A stretch of DNA of 64,000 nucleotides from Escherichia coli (GTDB taxonomy: Bacteria > Pseudomonadota > Gammaproteobacteria > Enterobacterales > Enterobacteriaceae). The stretch is from the NCBI RefSeq assembly GCF_011045215.1, contig NZ_CP049201.1; one strand, written 5' to 3'. Both the position numbers and the translations under genes were made by a program. The notes under the pieces are model-generated. The model was not told the DNA's origin. It saw only the letters and a list, made by a program, of their open reading frames with translations, and did not search any database. Every line of letters begins with the position of its first letter. Position 1 is the stretch's first letter. Shown piece after piece: positions 2,111 through 8,373 of this stretch.

Positions 2111-2133
2111 GGGGCATAAAAAATTTATGCCCC
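2111..2133 (+). other. Perfect 10-bp-stem hairpin (ggggcataaa/tttatgcccc) 28 bp after the portal stop; possible PQ-operon 3' structure
   Basis: Inverted repeat read directly from the sequence. There is no downstream T-run, so it is not called an intrinsic terminator. Confidence 0.4.
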
Positions 2134-2688
2134 GACTCTCCAGCTCTTGTATCAATCAGATAATTTCACGACGCTTTCCTGCTTATTGCCATCATCGACA
2201 GTCAGACTCTTACGCAATCCCACCGCGTTGACTGCATGTTCTCGCCGTCTCAGTGCGATTTTGACGGCCTTACCTTTCACCCCATCAAATCAAAAGCCCT
2301 CACGTCTTTTTCACGCTCAGCGTGAGAAATACAGCCATTCTGTTGTGTCGCTGCGACATCGTTCAGGGGATGCTATTTACCCCCTGAAACGCGGGCTGTT
2401 CCCCCGTCACCTGCGCGCAGAAAAAACGCGTTTTTTTGTGCACGCACGGTTCCCTGACGGATCCAGCCGCCACGCGGGTCGGAAGGGCAAAAAGTCGTTC
2501 AAAAAAATTGTGCAAATTTGTGCACTTTTGTGCAGGTAAGCATGCCCATATATTTGACCGTAGCTTGCCTTTGATGTAGTTTATGCGTCACAAAAACCAC
2601 AAAACGTGGTTATGATTTCTATGAGGGGGTTGATATGAAAAAAATGTATGATGAATTTGATGGTTTCTAAGCTACGTTGACCTCTAAT

Positions 2689-2717
2689 GAGGCGGGGATT
2701 TGCTCCCCGCCTTTTTT
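2689..2717 (+). terminator. Rho-independent terminator immediately upstream of the low-GC cassette
   Basis: GGCGGGGA-tttgc-TCCCCGCC stem-loop (8-bp GC-rich stem) followed by TTTTTT. Confidence 0.8.
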
Positions 2718-2731
2718 ATGGATGAAATAGG

Positions 2732-3229
2732 ATGAACCCAATAACACTACAAATCATCAGCAATGCTATTGTTCTGCTTGGCGTTTTGGTTGCCATTGGA
2801 ACCATTATCTACAATGTGCGTACCGCAAAAAAAACTCAAACGGCCAACTTTCTTTTTGAGAGTCGGCAAGATATGCAATATATAGAGTCATTGCATACCC
2901 TGAAACAAGTGCATCGTTCAGGCAAATCATTTCGTTCTTATGTTTTTCCTTGTGATGGTTGTACAATAACAGATGAGGAAATGGCCGAGCGTCGAAAATT
3001 TCAATATATTTTAAATTTTTACGAGCGAGTTGCTGTAAGTATTCGTGAAGGTATTTATGATGAAAAAATGATAAAAAGAACATCTTACACAACAGTTGTA
3101 GAGACATATGATATTGCCGAGCCATTAATTAAAGCAATCAGAGAAAGCATTAATTCGGATACTACATATCAAGAATTCGAATGGTTAGTAAGAAGATGGA
3201 AAGCTAATCCTTTACGGAAAAACAAATAA
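2732..3229 (+). CDS. Hypothetical single-pass membrane protein (165 aa), first gene of a low-GC cargo cassette; candidate defence/exclusion component
   Basis: ORF with an N-terminal hydrophobic helix (ITLQIISNAIVLLGVLVAIGTIIY) followed by a charged soluble domain. GC content is visibly lower than the flanking phage genes. No motif recognised. Confidence 0.7.
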   Translation: MNPITLQIISNAIVLLGVLVAIGTIIYNVRTAKKTQTANFLFESRQDMQYIESLHTLKQVHRSGKSFRSYVFPCDGCTITDEEMAERRKFQYILNFYERVAVSIREGIYDEKMIKRTSYTTVVETYDIAEPLIKAIRESINSDTTYQEFEWLVRRWKANPLRKNK

Positions 3230-3268: not shown

Positions 3269-4111
3269 GTGACACAGAATCCGTTTTCATTTTATGACTT
3301 TTTGGGCTATCTAATTCCAGGTGGGTTATTCCTGTTTATCCTTTTTTTGTTTTCTATTGAAATTAACCCTGTTTATATAGAAGGTATTCTTAACCACATC
3401 CTGAAATATAAAGAAATAATAAGTGTATTTATATATGTGGTATTAATTGTTCTATCATATATTTCAGGTCACTTCATATCTATTCTATCATCCTGTTTAA
3501 TTGAAAAATACATGAACAGTAAACTTGGGTATCCTTCAATTTATCTGTTTTCTAAAAGAAGCTCCCTGAAAATAAAACGACATAATACTAAGTTCAGTAT
3601 AGTTCATTTTATCCGTGGAGTTTTTTTACTTCCTGTATCAGCTTTTGATAAAGCAGAACATCATAAAACCACTCTGCATTCTATACTTATTAAAGTCTTT
3701 TGGCCGCAAATACGAGATGGTTATATAAATGTTTTTTCTGTATCTACGCTATATCGACGTAAGGGCTTGAGGGGCGATCTTTTTCGCCTTGCTTATCATT
3801 ATGTGTATGAACATTCTAAAAATCATCAGGTGAAAATGCAAAACTATGTTGCTTTGTATGGTTTTTGTAGAAACATTACATTTGTTTTTCTCGCTTCAGT
3901 CTGGTTGCTTATATGCCTGTTCCCTCTATCCTTTTTAATAGATATAAATATCAGGTTGTTACCTTTTTGTTTTCTTCTCTTGTTTTGTATTGCTGCATCC
4001 CGAGTATTTTATTATGGTTTTGTTAAGTATTATCGCCGCTATTCTCTTGAGGTTTTAATGGCATTTGCGGTACTTCAGCACGATAAAAAAACTTCGGCAA
4101 TTCCATCATGA
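3269..4111 (+). CDS. Hypothetical four-pass membrane protein (280 aa), second gene of the low-GC cargo cassette; candidate defence/exclusion component
   Basis: GTG start 6 nt after an AGGGGGA Shine-Dalgarno, 39 bp downstream of the previous gene. Four predicted hydrophobic helices (two N-terminal, two C-terminal) flank a ~110 aa basic central region. Low GC. Confidence 0.7.
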   Translation: MTQNPFSFYDFLGYLIPGGLFLFILFLFSIEINPVYIEGILNHILKYKEIISVFIYVVLIVLSYISGHFISILSSCLIEKYMNSKLGYPSIYLFSKRSSLKIKRHNTKFSIVHFIRGVFLLPVSAFDKAEHHKTTLHSILIKVFWPQIRDGYINVFSVSTLYRRKGLRGDLFRLAYHYVYEHSKNHQVKMQNYVALYGFCRNITFVFLASVWLLICLFPLSFLIDINIRLLPFCFLLLFCIAASRVFYYGFVKYYRRYSLEVLMAFAVLQHDKKTSAIPS

Positions 4112-4194: not shown

Positions 4195-4509
4195 TTATTC
4201 TGGGAATAAGGTCTGAATATTCTTTTTTATTTTATAAAAATTGCATTCAACTCCGCTAGGCTGATTAGCCTGGTATGTTTCCTTGATGCTAACGGTATTG
4301 AAGGGGAGGTTGTCCTCTGGCCATTCGGCCATCCAGTAGGCAAATGCTGGGTTGCGCTTTATGAGTGCTAGCCCAGCCAGAAAGGCCGCGCGTTGCGCGC
4401 GGCTGCGTTCGGAGGCTGGCAGGCTATCGAGGTAATTGCACGCCTCCTGTTCACTCTTGACGGCGGCGGGCTTCAGATAGAAACTTATCCGTCTGGTTGG
4501 TGTCGTCAT
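4195..4509 (-). CDS. parR: ParR-like partition adaptor / centromere-binding protein
   Basis: 104 aa ORF directly downstream of the parM-like gene. The segment ISFYLKPAAVKSEQEACNYLDSLPASERSRAQRAAFLAGLALIKRNP resembles the plasmid R1 ParR N-terminal ribbon-helix-helix region, as recalled from memory. Confidence 0.7.
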   Translation of the reverse strand: MTTPTRRISFYLKPAAVKSEQEACNYLDSLPASERSRAQRAAFLAGLALIKRNPAFAYWMAEWPEDNLPFNTVSIKETYQANQPSGVECNFYKIKKNIQTLFPE

Positions 4510-4513
4510 TGGT

Positions 4514-5473
4514 TTACTCCTTGTTCATTGCGTACAGTCCATTAACCAGAGCAAACTGTGGCACCCCGTCCGCGATGAAAGTCGCATTAACTCCGCAGGC
4601 TTCGCGGATAGCGGGTGCCACAATCTCCGCCCCGCCACCGACAACCATCACCCGCCCGTAACCCGAAAAAACCGCCAGCGCGCGGATCACGCGTTGTTTC
4701 AGTGTTTCTTCCTTTTCACGAATAACCGCCATCAGGCTGGCGTAATGCGCGTCATTGTGGATGTGCTGGCGCAGCCAGGCTTCATCATGGCGATGTTCGA
4801 TAATGGTATTGGCGATGTGGTGACTGGTGCGCATACCGTTAGTGGCCATCACCGACAGTACGGCATCGGCCATCAGAGAAACGCCTACGTGTGGATCGCA
4901 AAACACCTGGCTGATACCTGCCAGTTGCCCCTGGACCTTTGCCACATCCAGCGTGGTTCCGCCCAAATCCACAATCAGCAGGGATTCAAACGGACTCATG
5001 TCAGCCAGTGCCTTAAAGCCAGCCGGAATGGATTCAGGCATAACCCGTACGTTACGGATAGTGAATGCTTCGCCGTTCTGGTACTCCACCGGGCGCATGA
5101 CGTTCGCTTTTTTGCGGTTGATGTTGGCCATGTCCGGCTGTGCGTTTGTGTCGAAATATTCGCTCAGTGGCAGGGTGACAACCACATCCACTTCCTGTGG
5201 TGTGATGCCTGATTTGACCAGCGCGTGATGAATGGCAATGACATTCACATCGCTGTACTGGTATTGCGTGTCGGTCGTCTGGACAAAGCGATCGCTGACC
5301 GGATCAAAACCATAGCGCACGCCATCAACCATGTAGTTCGCGGGCTGCGTGCCACCGAACGGCGCAGACCATTCCGACTTGAAGCTGTTCGGGCTGATGG
5401 CGTTGCGGCGTTCGCCGTTCTCAGTCCATGCCAGCTTGATGTTGGTGGAGCCGTCATCGATACAAATTTTCAT
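4514..5473 (-). CDS. parM: ParM/StbA-like actin-type segregation ATPase
   Basis: 319 aa. The N-terminus MKICIDDGSTNIKLAW and motifs LIVDLGGTTLD and VMVVGGGAEI resemble R1 ParM (actin-fold phosphate and adenosine motifs). An AAGGAAAAG Shine-Dalgarno lies upstream. Confidence 0.85.
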   Translation of the reverse strand: MKICIDDGSTNIKLAWTENGERRNAISPNSFKSEWSAPFGGTQPANYMVDGVRYGFDPVSDRFVQTTDTQYQYSDVNVIAIHHALVKSGITPQEVDVVVTLPLSEYFDTNAQPDMANINRKKANVMRPVEYQNGEAFTIRNVRVMPESIPAGFKALADMSPFESLLIVDLGGTTLDVAKVQGQLAGISQVFCDPHVGVSLMADAVLSVMATNGMRTSHHIANTIIEHRHDEAWLRQHIHNDAHYASLMAVIREKEETLKQRVIRALAVFSGYGRVMVVGGGAEIVAPAIREACGVNATFIADGVPQFALVNGLYAMNKE

Positions 5474-5507: not shown

Positions 5508-5613
5508 GCGGGATTCTGAAATCCCGTTTTTGCCTGTTTTATGCGCGCTTCATATATCGCGGCGCGTTTTTTGCTCATTTACGGGATTTGTGAATCCCGT
5601 TTCTGTCTGTTTT
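5508..5613. repeat. Two ~33-bp direct repeats, each containing a gggatt-N5-aatccc inverted repeat, upstream of parM; candidate parC-like centromere/promoter or plus-strand terminator hairpins
   Basis: Repeat 1 at 5508-5540 (gcgggattctgaaatcccgtttttgcctgtttt) and repeat 2 at 5581-5613 (acgggatttgtgaatcccgtttctgtctgtttt). Repeat 2 overlaps the 3' end of the gpA-like gene. Confidence 0.5.
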
Positions 5614-8373
5614 TTTGTTTCCACTGGTCAGGCTACCCTGCAGCAGGTCTGCTTTGCGGCGGGCGCGTTCAGTGGTTTCACTGATTCTCTGTGCGTGCTC
5701 TGCGTCACAAATGGCGCGCAGCATGTCAGAAAGCACGGTAACGGGTGTTTTCATGGTGTTCTGGACCTGCTGAAGTGTGGATGCCAGGCGTGCGGCGGCT
5801 TCGGGGTCTGATGCCCCGAGCTGTGCCAGATAGCTGGCGACCGGGTTATGGCGGATCTCCGTGCTGCTTACGCCGTGATTACGGCTCAGGCGCTGCCAGA
5901 GCTGCGTGATTCGGCTGTCCGGGCGGGTATCCGGTTTACGTACAATTTCAAATCCCTGCGGTGAAATGATGCTGCCGTCAACGTACAGACTGCCGCCCCG
6001 TAACAGGTGCTGCATCTGCTGTTCACCGATATGCAGGCCGAGAGATTCAGCAGACTCCCGCCATTCTTTAGCGAGTAACTCGTGGTTATCAGGCAAAGGC
6101 CGCGGCTGTTTGCGGCTCTGTGTCCAGCTCTGCATTTCATCGCTGCTGTTTTTTGCCTGTTTGTCACGAAGCGAACGCATCAGCGCCCGGCGTTCGTGCC
6201 GTTTCAGTGAGCGCATCCATTCATTCACTTCAACGCCGTCAGGAAGCTGCGGCCACGGTGCTGGCCGTTCTTCCGACTGTTCTGTCCCGCTGTTGCCTGT
6301 TTCCTGTACACGGGGACAGTTATTGCCACGAGTCCAAGGGGCGGCAGGGCCGCCCTGAAGGTCAAAACCATTTTCGCGGGCGCTGTCTTCCGCTTCCGGT
6401 TTACGTCTTACCAGCTTCCAGTTATCCGGATGCGTGCACACACGGGAGGATTCCCCGATGAGTGGTGACCAGATCCCGTAAATCTGTACGCTCTGTTCGC
6501 CGTAATCGTTCAGCTCATCTGCGAGGTCGTAGGCGGTGCGAATCAGGTAGTCTTTACGTGGAACAAGTACGCCACCCTGTTTCTCAATGTAGGTGGCAAA
6601 ACATCCGGCATCAGCGGCAGCAAGAACCGCATCCATTGCGTCATCCTTCAGCCGTTGCGGGCCTTCCGGGTTGCGTGCCATCTGGCTGGCAAGGCGGCGG
6701 AGTTCACGCCACACCTGACGGGAGGGAATGCCAAAGAACTGGAACTGGCGGACCCGGTGAAGGCGCGCCCAGCCGATGGCGCGCTCCACGCTCTCGGCCA
6801 TTGATTTACCTGTTTCGTGGTCAACGCGTGGCTTGCCCGTTTTCGGGTCGATGCCATCCACGGCACGGCTGTCCAGGTTTTTCCCAATGTAGGTGGCGAT
6901 GTAGCTGGTCGGTGTGCCTTTTGAGCCGTCGACGTACTCCGCCTTAAAGCGTGGGGTAATATCATCACCCAGCTCGTGACGATCTTCCTGAATGGCAATA
7001 TCGCGGGTGTGGGACACAATGGTGTCGATTTCTTCCGGATGAGCAAAGACCATCATATGCCAGTGCACGGTGCCGTCATGGTGAGGCTCCACCGTGCGGA
7101 TGCCATACCAGCGCAGGCCGTCGCGGTTCAGTTTCTTGCGGACCGCCGCAAAAAACGTGTTAACCAGGTAATCGCTGGAGTCGCGCATGGTGGCCCCGTT
7201 CCATTTGGGATTCGGATGACCGTTCTCCGTTGTTGCGTGGTATTTTGACGGGCAGGTGACAGTCAGAAACACCGCTCTGTCGCCACGGGCTTCGGCCAGA
7301 AGTTCCAGCCCCTTCATGGTGGCCATCATTTCTGCCTTACGGTGAACCGGGTTACTTACTCCCGCGTAATACACTGTCTCGAGATCAATCGTGAACCCGT
7401 CTTCATTTTCCAGCATGAAACTTTTCAGGAAATCGCGTGTTTTCTCGCGCTGTGCGCGAAACTCGCTTAACGCGTCCTGGCTCAGATATGGTGATGTTTT
7501 TCTGGAAACCAGACAGGCGGCGCGGAGTTGTTCTTCTCTCCACTCGCAACGTAACAGCCACAGTTTGCGTTTCCACCATTCCGCACAGGTCAGGCGAAGG
7601 ATTGCGCCCGGCAGCAGCTCCGTGTCCGGTTCGTTCCTCCGGTCTTTGTCTGTCGTCAGTGCGTCATAATGTGGAGGCATGGCGTGCAGGTGTAACGCCA
7701 TGCGGGCCAGCATCTGATACGCCTTCAGCGTTACATCCATGGTCAGTTCACCATCAGTCGCGCCAAAGCCATCGCAGAGTTTTTCGAAGGTGCTGCTGAA
7801 CATCGCCGCCGTCATGGTGGCCAGCGTCTGTATCTGGTGTTTGTTGAGCTGCGGCAGGTAAAGCAAATCGTCCAGGCGTTCGCGTCCGGCAAGGGAGCGA
7901 TAACCCGGTGTCAGCCAGCGTCCGTCAGTGCGATCCAGACGTTCGAATATTTTGCGCAGGGTTCCGCGTGCATAGCGTTCCGCCTGCCAGCTCTTTTTGC
8001 CTTTCCTGCGATCGGCTTCCTGTTTTTTGCGCAGGAAGGAGAGGTGGCGAATAAGCGGATCGCGCAGATAGGACGGCAGCAGGCGCAGCGAGGCCATGGC
8101 TTCATCCACCGCGCCGCGTGCCTGTTTTCTGGCGTCTCCTGCCAGTGTGATGGTTTTGTCCTGTTTTTCCTGTGCGTCCAGGCTTTTATTAATCAGGTTG
8201 CCCAGCGGCGTGGCGGAGAACGCCGCATCAGCCATTTCCTGGCGGCGCTCGTTCTCTGCCCGGTAGGCATCCAGCCAGGAGGAAAGCGCGGATTCAGGAG
8301 CGGGGATCCCCGTTCCTTCACGCCCCACTGCGTGGCGCGGTTGTTGCCAGTCCCTGATGTACTCTGCCGTCAT
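5575..8373 (-). CDS. Phage replication initiation protein, P2 gpA family (HUH rolling-circle endonuclease)
   Basis: 932 aa ORF containing a TVHWHMMVF motif of the HUH type. Its position after the early-operon genes matches gene A of P2/186. Confidence 0.85.
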   Translation of the reverse strand: MTAEYIRDWQQPRHAVGREGTGIPAPESALSSWLDAYRAENERRQEMADAAFSATPLGNLINKSLDAQEKQDKTITLAGDARKQARGAVDEAMASLRLLPSYLRDPLIRHLSFLRKKQEADRRKGKKSWQAERYARGTLRKIFERLDRTDGRWLTPGYRSLAGRERLDDLLYLPQLNKHQIQTLATMTAAMFSSTFEKLCDGFGATDGELTMDVTLKAYQMLARMALHLHAMPPHYDALTTDKDRRNEPDTELLPGAILRLTCAEWWKRKLWLLRCEWREEQLRAACLVSRKTSPYLSQDALSEFRAQREKTRDFLKSFMLENEDGFTIDLETVYYAGVSNPVHRKAEMMATMKGLELLAEARGDRAVFLTVTCPSKYHATTENGHPNPKWNGATMRDSSDYLVNTFFAAVRKKLNRDGLRWYGIRTVEPHHDGTVHWHMMVFAHPEEIDTIVSHTRDIAIQEDRHELGDDITPRFKAEYVDGSKGTPTSYIATYIGKNLDSRAVDGIDPKTGKPRVDHETGKSMAESVERAIGWARLHRVRQFQFFGIPSRQVWRELRRLASQMARNPEGPQRLKDDAMDAVLAAADAGCFATYIEKQGGVLVPRKDYLIRTAYDLADELNDYGEQSVQIYGIWSPLIGESSRVCTHPDNWKLVRRKPEAEDSARENGFDLQGGPAAPWTRGNNCPRVQETGNSGTEQSEERPAPWPQLPDGVEVNEWMRSLKRHERRALMRSLRDKQAKNSSDEMQSWTQSRKQPRPLPDNHELLAKEWRESAESLGLHIGEQQMQHLLRGGSLYVDGSIISPQGFEIVRKPDTRPDSRITQLWQRLSRNHGVSSTEIRHNPVASYLAQLGASDPEAAARLASTLQQVQNTMKTPVTVLSDMLRAICDAEHAQRISETTERARRKADLLQGSLTSGNKKTDRNGIHKSRK

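What the first reader, a model, noticed from the sequence alone, without database searches (positions are those of the whole stretch)
2540..2735. Leader architecture in front of the cassette: promoter-like elements, an 11-codon ORF with a strong Shine-Dalgarno, an intrinsic terminator, and a 5-codon ORF overlapping the cassette start
Upstream of the cassette there is a sigma70-like pair (TTGACC at ~2557, 17 bp spacer, TAGTTT). A GAGGGGG Shine-Dalgarno 5 nt before an ATG at 2635 opens an 11-codon ORF (MKKMYDEFDGF). A strong terminator follows at 2689-2717. Then a 5-codon ORF (ATG at 2718, MDEIG) has its TGA stop overlapping the cassette ATG at 2732. This layout resembles a transcription-attenuation or translational-coupling leader and could keep the cassette silent until a specific signal.
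Basis: seen in the sequence. Interest (0 to 1): 0.5.

Follow-up and report, generated by a model that had tools for sequence, protein, structure and literature searches.

The report
Conserved micro-gene before DUF4760 gene
The supposed "leader" is a real promoter, 11-codon gene and terminator, but the tiny gene encodes a conserved peptide that sits in front of every full-length, uninterrupted DUF4760 membrane-protein gene I examined and also occurs alone in other phages, so it is probably a functional micro-protein rather than a classical attenuation leader.

Summary
They are a promoter (TTGACC 2554-2559 / TAGTTT 2577-2582), a strong Shine-Dalgarno, the 11-codon ORF 2635-2670 (MKKMYDEFDGF), a -19 kcal/mol terminator at 2689-2717, and a 5-codon ORF at 2718-2735.

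Promoter, micro-ORF and terminator are conserved in related phages. The 5-codon ORF is not.

The locus lies in the cos-proximal cargo hotspot of a P88-like (P2-family) prophage.

The new result concerns the micro-ORF. An SD-preceded micro-ORF with an acidic/aromatic C-terminus lies upstream of every full-length, uninterrupted DUF4760 gene examined. That covers 19 genome loci and 8 of 8 distant representatives. The terminator is often absent there, and the stop then abuts the DUF4760 start. Intact copies also stand alone in phiEco32-like, T4-like and lambdoid phages, a plasmid and P2-like prophages.

Codon variation is mostly synonymous. No antiterminator structure is predicted.

My best reading is a short, abundant peptide transcript plus rare read-through into DUF4760, an architecture like mccA-mccB. 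The peptide then acts in trans, probably on DUF4760. That last step is inferred, and an AlphaFold2 fusion test gave no support for binding.

Classical attenuation is not supported. I found no literature on either partner.

The parts
2554..2582 (+). Sigma-70-type promoter: -35 TTGACC (2554-2559), 17-nt spacer, -10 TAGTTT (2577-2582). The predicted transcription start is near A2590.
   Evidence: Sequence read. The same -35/-10 arrangement is conserved in at least 10 distinct P2-like leaders. The start site is inferred and not mapped.
2595..2611 (+). 5' stem-loop of the predicted transcript (AACCAC-AAAAC-GTGGTT).
   Evidence: Other lineages have a hairpin at the same place with different stems: CACC/GGTG, TTCAC/GTGAA and GTTCAC/GTGAAC.
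2623..2629 (+). Strong Shine-Dalgarno GAGGGGG, 5 nt before the micro-ORF ATG.
   Evidence: The duplex with the 16S 3' end is -14.2 kcal/mol, against -3.8 for the DUF4760 start region.
2635..2670 (+). Micro-ORF of 11 codons plus TAA, encoding MKKMYDEFDGF.
   Evidence: The peptide M-x(0-3)-[FY]DEFDGF, and more distant acidic/aromatic variants, are conserved upstream of DUF4760 genes. Codon variation is mostly synonymous.
2676..2685 (+). Post-stop element GTTGACCTCT, complementary to the SD region 2625-2634. The predicted helix encloses the micro-ORF.
   Evidence: It forms in the MFE and centroid structures and is predicted in 16 of 20 distinct leaders. Support against shuffles is only modest: median p 0.08, and 6 of 20 below 0.05.
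2689..2717 (+). Intrinsic terminator: GAGGCGGGGA-TTTGC-TCCCCGCCTT followed by T6.
   Evidence: -19.1 kcal/mol. It is conserved in Enterobacterales and Halomonadaceae leaders and absent from most distant lineages.
2718..2735 (+). ATGGATGAAATAGGATGA: the 5-codon ORF MDEIG. It is more likely the A/U-rich, weak ribosome-binding region (GGA) of the DUF4760 gene.
   Evidence: The ATGG is conserved, but the frame relative to DUF4760 varies between loci.
2732..3229 (+). DUF4760 gene (165 aa): an N-terminal transmembrane helix plus a cytoplasmic helical domain.
   Evidence: Pfam PF15956, E 1.3e-34. The AlphaFold2 model has pLDDT 93. The family has 3885 clusters at 50% identity.

Best explanation
The interval is the front half of a two-gene module carried in the cos-proximal cargo hotspot of a P88-like (P2-family) prophage.

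Proposed mechanism:
1. A conserved sigma-70 promoter starts a short RNA of roughly 125 nt.
2. This RNA is highly structured: a 5' hairpin, the SD paired to a post-stop element, and a strong intrinsic terminator.
3. It carries a micro-gene with a very strong ribosome-binding site, encoding the 11-residue acidic/aromatic peptide MKKMYDEFDGF.
4. Most transcripts end at the terminator. The few that read through carry the DUF4760 membrane-protein gene, whose weak ribosome-binding site abuts the U-tract.
5. The terminator therefore acts as a fixed ratio-setter (much peptide, little DUF4760), not as a switch.

Shown here:
- The anatomy.
- Conservation of promoter, micro-ORF and terminator.
- Peptide-level selection on the micro-ORF.
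- Universal pairing of a micro-ORF with full-length, uninterrupted DUF4760 genes in the sample.
- The existence of intact stand-alone copies.

Inferred:
- The peptide acts in trans.
- Its most likely target is the cytoplasmic domain of DUF4760, as a labile antidote or regulator.
- Stand-alone copies in lytic phages and plasmids would then serve as antidote mimics.

Promoter:
- It is conserved in at least 10 lineages.

Peptide selection:
- In an unbiased set there are 97 synonymous against 25 nonsynonymous codon differences. Every third position varies, and all three stop codons are used.

Partnership with DUF4760:
- A micro-ORF lies upstream of all 19 full-length DUF4760 genes found by protein search in genomes. 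These span Enterobacterales, Halomonadaceae, Pasteurellaceae, Marinomonas and Nitrotoga.
- The same holds for 8 of 8 distant cluster representatives.
- In at least 10 of these loci there is no terminator, and the stop overlaps or abuts the DUF4760 start (TAATG, TGATG, TAGATG).

Stand-alone intact copies with no downstream gene to regulate:
- Plasmid pMS21199B.
- phiEco32, where it is the last ORF before a terminator and a convergent gene.
- P2-like L058 and L045/46.
- Karamvirus PG7, where it is annotated as a 21-aa protein.

Other points:
- No antiterminator is predicted.
- The locus is the published P2 defence hotspot (PMC9122126).
- An experimentally established precedent exists: mccA, terminator, mccB (PMC4231749).
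Against: - There are no transcript, translation or phenotype data.
- An AlphaFold2 model of DUF4760 fused by a linker to the peptide, built with a paired alignment, left the peptide at pLDDT 30-41. That gives no support for monomer binding.
- DUF4760 matches no known toxin or defence family, so its toxicity is an assumption.
- One locus (L076) has lost the micro-ORF stop codon while DUF4760 is intact.
- One remnant (L049) shows the leader decaying together with DUF4760, which also fits a cis role.
- The pattern-based search forced the peptide motif. Only the protein-based sets are unbiased.
Confidence: 0.5

Rival explanations
1. Cis-acting regulatory leader. The nascent peptide ...[FY]DEFDGF stalls or destabilises the ribosome at or near the stop codon. 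This changes terminator efficiency or DUF4760 translation in response to a cellular signal, for example one produced by phage infection.
For: - Conservation is concentrated in the C-terminal residues up to the stop codon, with a variable N-terminus. That is the pattern seen in arrest peptides.
- The micro-ORF always lies directly upstream of DUF4760, often overlapping its start.
- In some lytic phages it overlaps the start of an unrelated downstream ORF, through ATGTATGAC.
- L049 decays together with DUF4760.
Against: - No alternative RNA structure links ribosome position to the terminator.
- The stop codon is 18 nt upstream of the stem.
- The same peptide occurs in two incompatible architectures: separated by a terminator, or overlapping the start.
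- Intact copies exist with no downstream gene.
- An 8-residue version (MYDEFDGF) is very short to act through the exit tunnel.
Confidence: 0.2
2. The peptide has its own target and is not a DUF4760 ligand. Either it mimics the acidic/aromatic C-terminal tail of a cellular or phage protein and competes for that tail's partner, or it is a precursor that is modified, as MccA is. DUF4760 would then be an effector, an immunity protein or merely a neighbour.
For: - Stand-alone copies occur in at least 7 unrelated phage lineages, often in replication or recombination gene blocks.
- E. coli NrdF ends ...ETEDEDWNF. This resembles the DEYDWF, DGWND and EGWDGF variants.
- R2 C-terminal peptides are established competitors of R1-R2 assembly (FTLDADF; PMC3483043).
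- One metagenomic module lies next to an RNR large-subunit gene (L099).
- The mccA architecture is a precedent for a substrate peptide (PMC4231749).
Against: - The strict pairing with DUF4760 across distant taxa argues for a functional partnership.
- DUF4760 has no enzyme-like match, whether by Pfam, NCBIfam or fold search.
- The tail resemblances rest on 5-7 residues and were not tested. The SSB and clamp-binding peptide comparisons come from my own memory only.
Confidence: 0.17
3. The short terminated transcript acts as a regulatory RNA, and the ORF is incidental.
For: - The transcript is compact and stable: MFE -38.4 kcal/mol, z = -3.4.
- It has 5' and 3' hairpins typical of sRNAs.
Against: - Variation in the ORF is mostly synonymous, and the peptide is conserved where the nucleotides are not.
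- There is no Rfam match above threshold.
- The flanking RNA elements differ between lineages.
Confidence: 0.03

Closest known systems
mccA - intrinsic terminator - mccB of the microcin C operon (PMC4231749)
   Same: - One promoter.
- A micro-ORF (7 codons there, 11 here) with a strong ribosome-binding site.
- An intrinsic terminator in the intergenic region.
- Downstream genes reached only by read-through. In mcc this gives a short abundant transcript and a long rare one that set the ratio of peptide to downstream protein.
   Different: - In mcc, upstream RNA attenuates the terminator until a ribosome binds. No such pairing is predicted here.
- MccA is a substrate of the adenylating enzyme MccB, whereas DUF4760 shows no enzyme signature.
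- The peptides are unrelated.
Leader-peptide transcription attenuators (trp, his, pheA, pyrBI)
   Same: The order is the same: promoter, short translated ORF, intrinsic terminator, structural gene.
   Different: - There is no antiterminator or anti-antiterminator.
- There are no regulatory codon runs.
- The ORF ends before the terminator.
- The peptide sequence itself is conserved, and it persists without a terminator and without a downstream gene.
Toxin-antitoxin operons: the type III ToxIN terminator layout and the type II coupled layout
   Same: - A small upstream product is made in excess over a downstream protein, either through an internal terminator (as in toxI-toxN) or through overlapping stop and start codons (as in type II pairs).
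- The module sits in a phage defence hotspot.
- Orphan copies of the small partner occur in competing phages, as with antitoxin mimics such as T4 Dmd (my own knowledge).
   Different: - The small partner is an 8-22-residue peptide, not an RNA repeat array or a folded DNA-binding antitoxin.
- DUF4760 is not a known toxin.
- Toxicity, lability and binding are all untested.
Ribosome arrest or sensor peptides (TnaC, SpeFL, SecM, MgtL)
   Same: A short upstream ORF whose C-terminal residues are conserved.
   Different: - Those act only in cis on a downstream gene. Here intact copies exist with nothing downstream.
- The downstream architecture here is not constant.
C-terminal tail peptides that compete for a partner: the RNR R2 tail (FTLDADF; E. 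coli NrdF ...EDEDWNF) and the SSB tail DFDDDIPF
   Same: A short acidic stretch with aromatic residues at or near a free C-terminus.
   Different: - This is only a resemblance.
- No binding partner was identified.
- The SSB and clamp-peptide comparisons are from my own memory.

Membership tests
Leader-peptide transcription attenuator | A short translated leader ORF and an intrinsic terminator lie between the promoter and the structural gene. | tested here: met
Leader-peptide transcription attenuator | A mutually exclusive antiterminator structure exists whose formation depends on ribosome position in the leader ORF. | tested here: not met
   The full leader folds with an intact terminator. Without the 3' arm, the 5' arm has no stable partner (z = -0.9). 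The stop codon lies 18 nt before the stem.
Leader-peptide transcription attenuator | The leader has meaning only together with its terminator and a downstream gene. | tested here: not met
   The micro-ORF is kept in DUF4760 lineages without a terminator. It is also kept in loci without a downstream gene.
mccA-type peptide gene with ratio-setting terminator | A micro-ORF with a strong RBS is followed by an intrinsic terminator, with downstream genes reached by read-through. | tested here: met
   There is no room for a promoter between the U-tract (2717) and the ATG (2732).
mccA-type peptide gene with ratio-setting terminator | A short abundant transcript and a long minor transcript coexist, and termination is ribosome-induced. 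| not testable with these tools
   This needs Northern blots, Term-seq or in vitro transcription.
mccA-type peptide gene with ratio-setting terminator | The downstream gene encodes an enzyme that modifies the peptide (MccB/ThiF-like). | tested here: not met
   Pfam gives only DUF4760. NCBIfam gives nothing. The fold resembles helical EP and GST-C domains.
Toxin-antitoxin or abortive-infection pair | A two-gene operon has a small upstream partner that is coupled to, or made in excess over, the downstream protein. | tested here: met
Toxin-antitoxin or abortive-infection pair | The components belong to known toxin, antitoxin or defence families. | tested here: not met
   PADLOC gives no hit for DUF4760. 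PHROG 2284 has unknown function.
Toxin-antitoxin or abortive-infection pair | The downstream protein is toxic and is neutralised by the small partner through direct binding. | tested here: inconclusive
   Toxicity cannot be tested here. The AlphaFold2 fusion model left the peptide at pLDDT 30-41, but it covered only a monomer with an artificial linker.
Ribosome arrest peptide | C-terminal residues of a short upstream ORF are conserved. | tested here: met
Ribosome arrest peptide | It is always placed in cis before the regulated gene. | tested here: not met
   Counter-examples are phiEco32, pMS21199B, L058 and L045/46.
P2-family cos-proximal cargo hotspot | It lies between the portal gene/cos and the replication gene, with content that varies among close relatives. 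| tested here: met
   The window has the portal gene at 1037-2083 and the replication endonuclease at 5575-8373. Homology to P88 stops at about 2535, and P88 carries other genes there. The definition is from PMC9122126.
P2-family cos-proximal cargo hotspot | The cargo has anti-phage activity. | not testable with these tools
   This needs phage challenge assays.
Any Rfam RNA family | A covariance-model match reaches the gathering score. | tested here: not met
   There is only a sub-threshold SorX match on the terminator: 19.3 bits against a 46.6 gathering score.

The most novel reading that the evidence does not exclude
The micro-ORF encodes one of the smallest directly translated functional gene products known, at 8-11 residues. 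It would be a labile peptide antidote that holds the membrane protein DUF4760 in check. When an infecting phage shuts down host expression, the peptide disappears and DUF4760 acts. Lytic phages (Karamvirus, phiEco32-like and others), some temperate phages and a plasmid carry the peptide gene alone as a counter-defence. This would define a peptide-antidote class of phage defence module, spread over thousands of DUF4760 clusters and so far unannotated.
Probability: 0.3. Interest if true: 0.85.

Novelty: new variant of a known kind. Interest (0 to 1): 0.68.

Why it matters
- DUF4760 is a large family with no known function: 3885 clusters at 50% identity. It sits in a proven anti-phage hotspot.
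- A conserved, unannotated micro-gene always accompanies it in this sample. That gives an immediate experimental handle: express the protein with and without the peptide.
- It also gives a rule for re-annotating thousands of loci.
- The same 8-residue ORF standing alone in T4-like, phiEco32-like and lambdoid phages points to a defence and counter-defence pair mediated by a peptide. That peptide is far below normal gene-calling thresholds.
- If the cis-regulatory rival is right instead, this would be a new, widespread sensor peptide.
- In either case, annotation pipelines miss it. In the RefSeq E. coli hits listed, only the DUF4760 gene was annotated under the match.

Tried and rejected
- Rfam scan at permissive E-values: nothing meaningful.
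- Antiterminator search by folding the leader with and without the terminator 3' arm: none found.
- RNAalifold on a MAFFT alignment: it recovered only the terminator stem, with a single covarying pair.
- SD/post-stop helix: predicted in most leaders, but only modestly better than shuffles. I keep it as a probable feature, not a proven one.
- 5-codon ORF as a coupling device: rejected because the frame is not conserved.
- PADLOC, NCBIfam and PHROGs for function: uninformative.
- AlphaFold2 of a DUF4760-linker-peptide fusion with a paired alignment: no confident docking.
- N-terminally extended DUF4760 homologues: these carry extra transmembrane segments and are not peptide fusions.
- Literature searches for DEFDGF and DUF4760: nothing relevant.
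- phmmer of the 21-aa T4-like ORF against PDB sequences: no hit.
- RNR-tail lead: I confirmed only that E. coli NrdF ends EDEDWNF. A tblastn survey of phage R2 genes did not reach the T4-like class Ia proteins, and I stopped there.
- Covariation between the peptide motif and the YQEFEWL motif of DUF4760: not assessable in the first set, because the search pattern fixed that motif, and none is evident in the distant set.

Full report
**Setting**

The window starts with the terminase (63-1037) and portal (1037-2083) genes of a P2-family prophage. The 2084-2760 interval matches P88-like phages (genus Xuanwuvirus). In most of them the match stops at about 2535.

One record (LR595891) begins at the base corresponding to window 2489. 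This places the cohesive end near 2470-2489.

Downstream lie a DUF4760 gene (2732-3229; Pfam E 1.3e-34), a 280-aa multi-pass membrane protein gene (3269-4111), parR/parM-like genes and the replication endonuclease, the last three on the minus strand.

P88 itself carries different, oppositely oriented genes between the same flanks. This is the cos-proximal hotspot between gpA and gpQ that Rousset et al. described as a reservoir of anti-phage systems (PMC9122126). The same leader and cassette occur in 288 of 5426 complete E. coli genomes.

**Checking the observation**

Every element is present:
- TTGACC 2554-2559, 17 nt, TAGTTT 2577-2582.
- GAGGGGG 2623-2629.
- The 11-codon ORF 2635-2670.
- A 10-bp stem-loop at 2689-2713 (-19.1 kcal/mol) followed by six T.
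- ATG 2718, opening MDEIG, whose TGA overlaps the DUF4760 ATG.

The promoter is not a strong consensus match. However, TTGAC(T/A/C)-17-TA(A/G)TTT is conserved at this position in at least ten distinct leaders.

A 5' hairpin (2595-2611) sits just after the predicted start. Other lineages have a hairpin there with different stems.

The 5-codon ORF is not conserved. The ATGG after the U-tract is kept, but it is in frame with DUF4760 in some loci and out of frame in others. More probably the GGA is the weak ribosome-binding site of DUF4760. Its duplex with 16S rRNA is -3.8 kcal/mol, against -14.2 for the micro-ORF.

**The micro-ORF is a conserved gene**

Divergent leaders in Citrobacter phage Shae_phiSM, another E. 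coli P2-like prophage and a plasmid encode MKKVFDEFDGF, MNKAFDEFDGF and MKKRYDEFDGF. They differ by synonymous changes, and the terminator stem shows a compensatory G-C to A-U change.

A degenerate pattern for [FY]DEFDGF-stop found 65 viral contigs. I estimate well under one hit by chance, but that rests on an assumed collection size.

About 40 of these contigs have the ORF in front of a DUF4760 gene, with the same layout of post-stop element, terminator and ATGG.

The pattern forces the peptide, so I made an unbiased test by finding DUF4760 genes through their protein.
- All 19 full-length genes from 24 genome loci have an SD-preceded micro-ORF just upstream.
- Examples are MKKICDEFDGF, MRTKFDEFDGF, MAFDEFDGF, MNSIQDEYDWF, MQLDEYDGF, 20-22-residue forms ending DENDGY or YDENDGL in Halomonadaceae, MKGLNEGWDGF in a Pasteurellaceae genome, MSIRDEWEDR in Marinomonas and MNHYFSDTWDD in Nitrotoga.

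A profile search then showed that the family has 3885 clusters at 50% identity. All eight distant representatives I looked up have such an ORF:
- MHVHRRMDGYDGF
- MRNDGYDHI
- MNTITFNDGWND
- MNTIIRDGWDG
- MILFNLFSMDEYEPV
- MSFYCEGWDD
- MTYAKEGDLV
- MFREIDEGF

In the unbiased enterobacterial set, all six D-E-F-D-G-F codons vary at the third position. Synonymous codon differences outnumber nonsynonymous ones 97 to 25, and all three stop codons are used. Selection therefore acts on the peptide.

**The terminator is real but not universal**

It is present in Enterobacterales, Halomonadaceae and two distant loci. Some lineages use unrelated stem sequences (L054, L012).

In the Pasteurellaceae genome, Marinomonas, Nitrotoga and six of the eight distant representatives there is none. 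There the micro-ORF stop overlaps or abuts the DUF4760 start.

**No switch is visible**

The full leader RNA (2590-2722) folds to -38.4 kcal/mol (z = -3.4). It forms the 5' hairpin, a helix between the SD region (2625-2634) and the post-stop element (2676-2685), and the intact terminator.

With the terminator 3' arm removed, the 5' arm finds no stable partner (z = -0.9). The stop codon is 18 nt from the stem, so I infer that a terminating ribosome would not melt it.

The SD/post-stop helix is predicted in 16 of 20 distinct leaders. Individually it is only modestly better than shuffles.

**Stand-alone copies**

Intact micro-ORFs with a ribosome-binding site occur without DUF4760 in several places:
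- Plasmid pMS21199B, with its terminator and then convergent genes.
- P2-like prophages that carry other cargo (L058, L045/46).
- phiEco32-like phages, where MYDEFDGF is the last ORF before a terminator and a convergent gene.
- Karamvirus phages such as PG7, as a 21-aa ORF ending FDEFDGF next to gene 47.
- Other large phages, and lambdoid Proteus/Providencia-type phages, where it lies just after the Q-linked terminator.

One P2-like remnant has lost the ATG, the terminator and DUF4760 together (L049).

**What DUF4760 looks like**

AlphaFold2 gives a confident model (pLDDT 93). It has a long N-terminal helix, with the transmembrane segment followed by RTAKK. From the positive-inside rule I infer that the C-terminal helical domain is cytoplasmic.

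No paper describes the family's function.

A fusion of DUF4760, a linker and the peptide, modelled with a paired alignment, left the peptide unplaced at pLDDT 30-41.

**Interpretation**

The architecture in the window is closest to mccA-terminator-mccB. In that operon a 7-codon gene is transcribed mostly as a short abundant RNA, and the downstream genes are reached by read-through (PMC4231749).

I conclude that the terminator here sets a high ratio of peptide to DUF4760. In other lineages, overlapping stop and start codons achieve at least parity.

Three things point to a trans-acting product rather than a cis leader: the peptide's conservation, its constant pairing with DUF4760, and its intact solitary copies.

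That it binds and restrains DUF4760, and that solitary copies are antidote mimics, is inference. It rests on analogy with toxin-antitoxin logic and on the hotspot context.

The rivals are:
- A nascent-peptide sensor acting in cis.
- A tail-mimic peptide with another target. E. coli NrdF ends EDEDWNF, and R2 tail peptides are known competitors of R1-R2 assembly.
- A substrate peptide.

**Verdict**

The attenuation and coupling interpretation is only partly supported.

The unexpected result is a widespread, unannotated micro-gene partnered with DUF4760.

Noticed in passing
window 2508-2534 (also 2437-2443): Three direct TTGTGCA repeats lie exactly 10 bp apart, between the cos region and the promoter. 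They are conserved in all P88-like phages whatever the cargo. They could be a terminase (cosB-like) site or a regulator-binding site close to the -35.
   Followed up: partly
L006 3650-3680 and 5000-5030; L030: An IS421 element is inserted inside the terminator, with a 12-bp duplication GGATTTGCTCCC. It separates DUF4760 from its promoter. In L006 the micro-ORF also carries a Y-to-H change.
   Followed up: partly
[not shown]
   Followed up: no
L098 1854-1880 (phiEco32); L072 1704-1769 (phage PG7, CG98_gp053): Solitary micro-ORFs ending YDEFDGF or FDEFDGF occur in lytic phages. In phiEco32 it overlaps the stop of phi32_27 and is unannotated. In PG7 it is annotated as a 21-aa hypothetical protein next to gene 47.
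   Followed up: partly
L010, L035, L053: In L010 the motif forms the C-terminal tail of a 70-aa protein (...IDEHFYDEFDGF) next to a 186-aa ORF that, from its N-terminal sequence, I judged to look like a small terminase subunit (not checked with any tool). In L035 and L053 it is tandemly doubled (LDEFEGFDEFDGF).
   Followed up: no
window 3269-4111: The second cassette gene encodes a 280-aa multi-pass membrane protein (phrog_12528) with a weak match to Csx27, E 6e-6. It is absent from several other DUF4760 loci (L001, L005), so it is an optional companion.
   Followed up: no
L109 4343-4462; L099 4-960: E. coli NrdF ends ...ETEDEDWNF, which resembles the micro-ORF consensus. One metagenomic micro-ORF/DUF4760 module lies directly after an RNR large-subunit gene.
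   Followed up: partly
L076 (Franconibacter pulveris, record titled Enterobacter pulveris); L049: In L076 the micro-ORF stop codon is mutated to TAC, extending the peptide by YIMK, while DUF4760 is intact. L049 is a decayed remnant that lacks the ATG, the terminator stem and DUF4760.
   Followed up: no
window 4195-5473: ParR-like and ParM-like partition genes lie inside the prophage, next to the replication endonuclease, as in other P88-like phages.
   Followed up: no
window 2112-2139: A long A/T-looped hairpin (CGGGGCATAAA...TTTATGCCCCG) lies directly after the portal gene. It is probably the terminator of the terminase-portal transcript. The only RNA-family hit is a sub-threshold gyrA match on the minus strand.
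   Followed up: no
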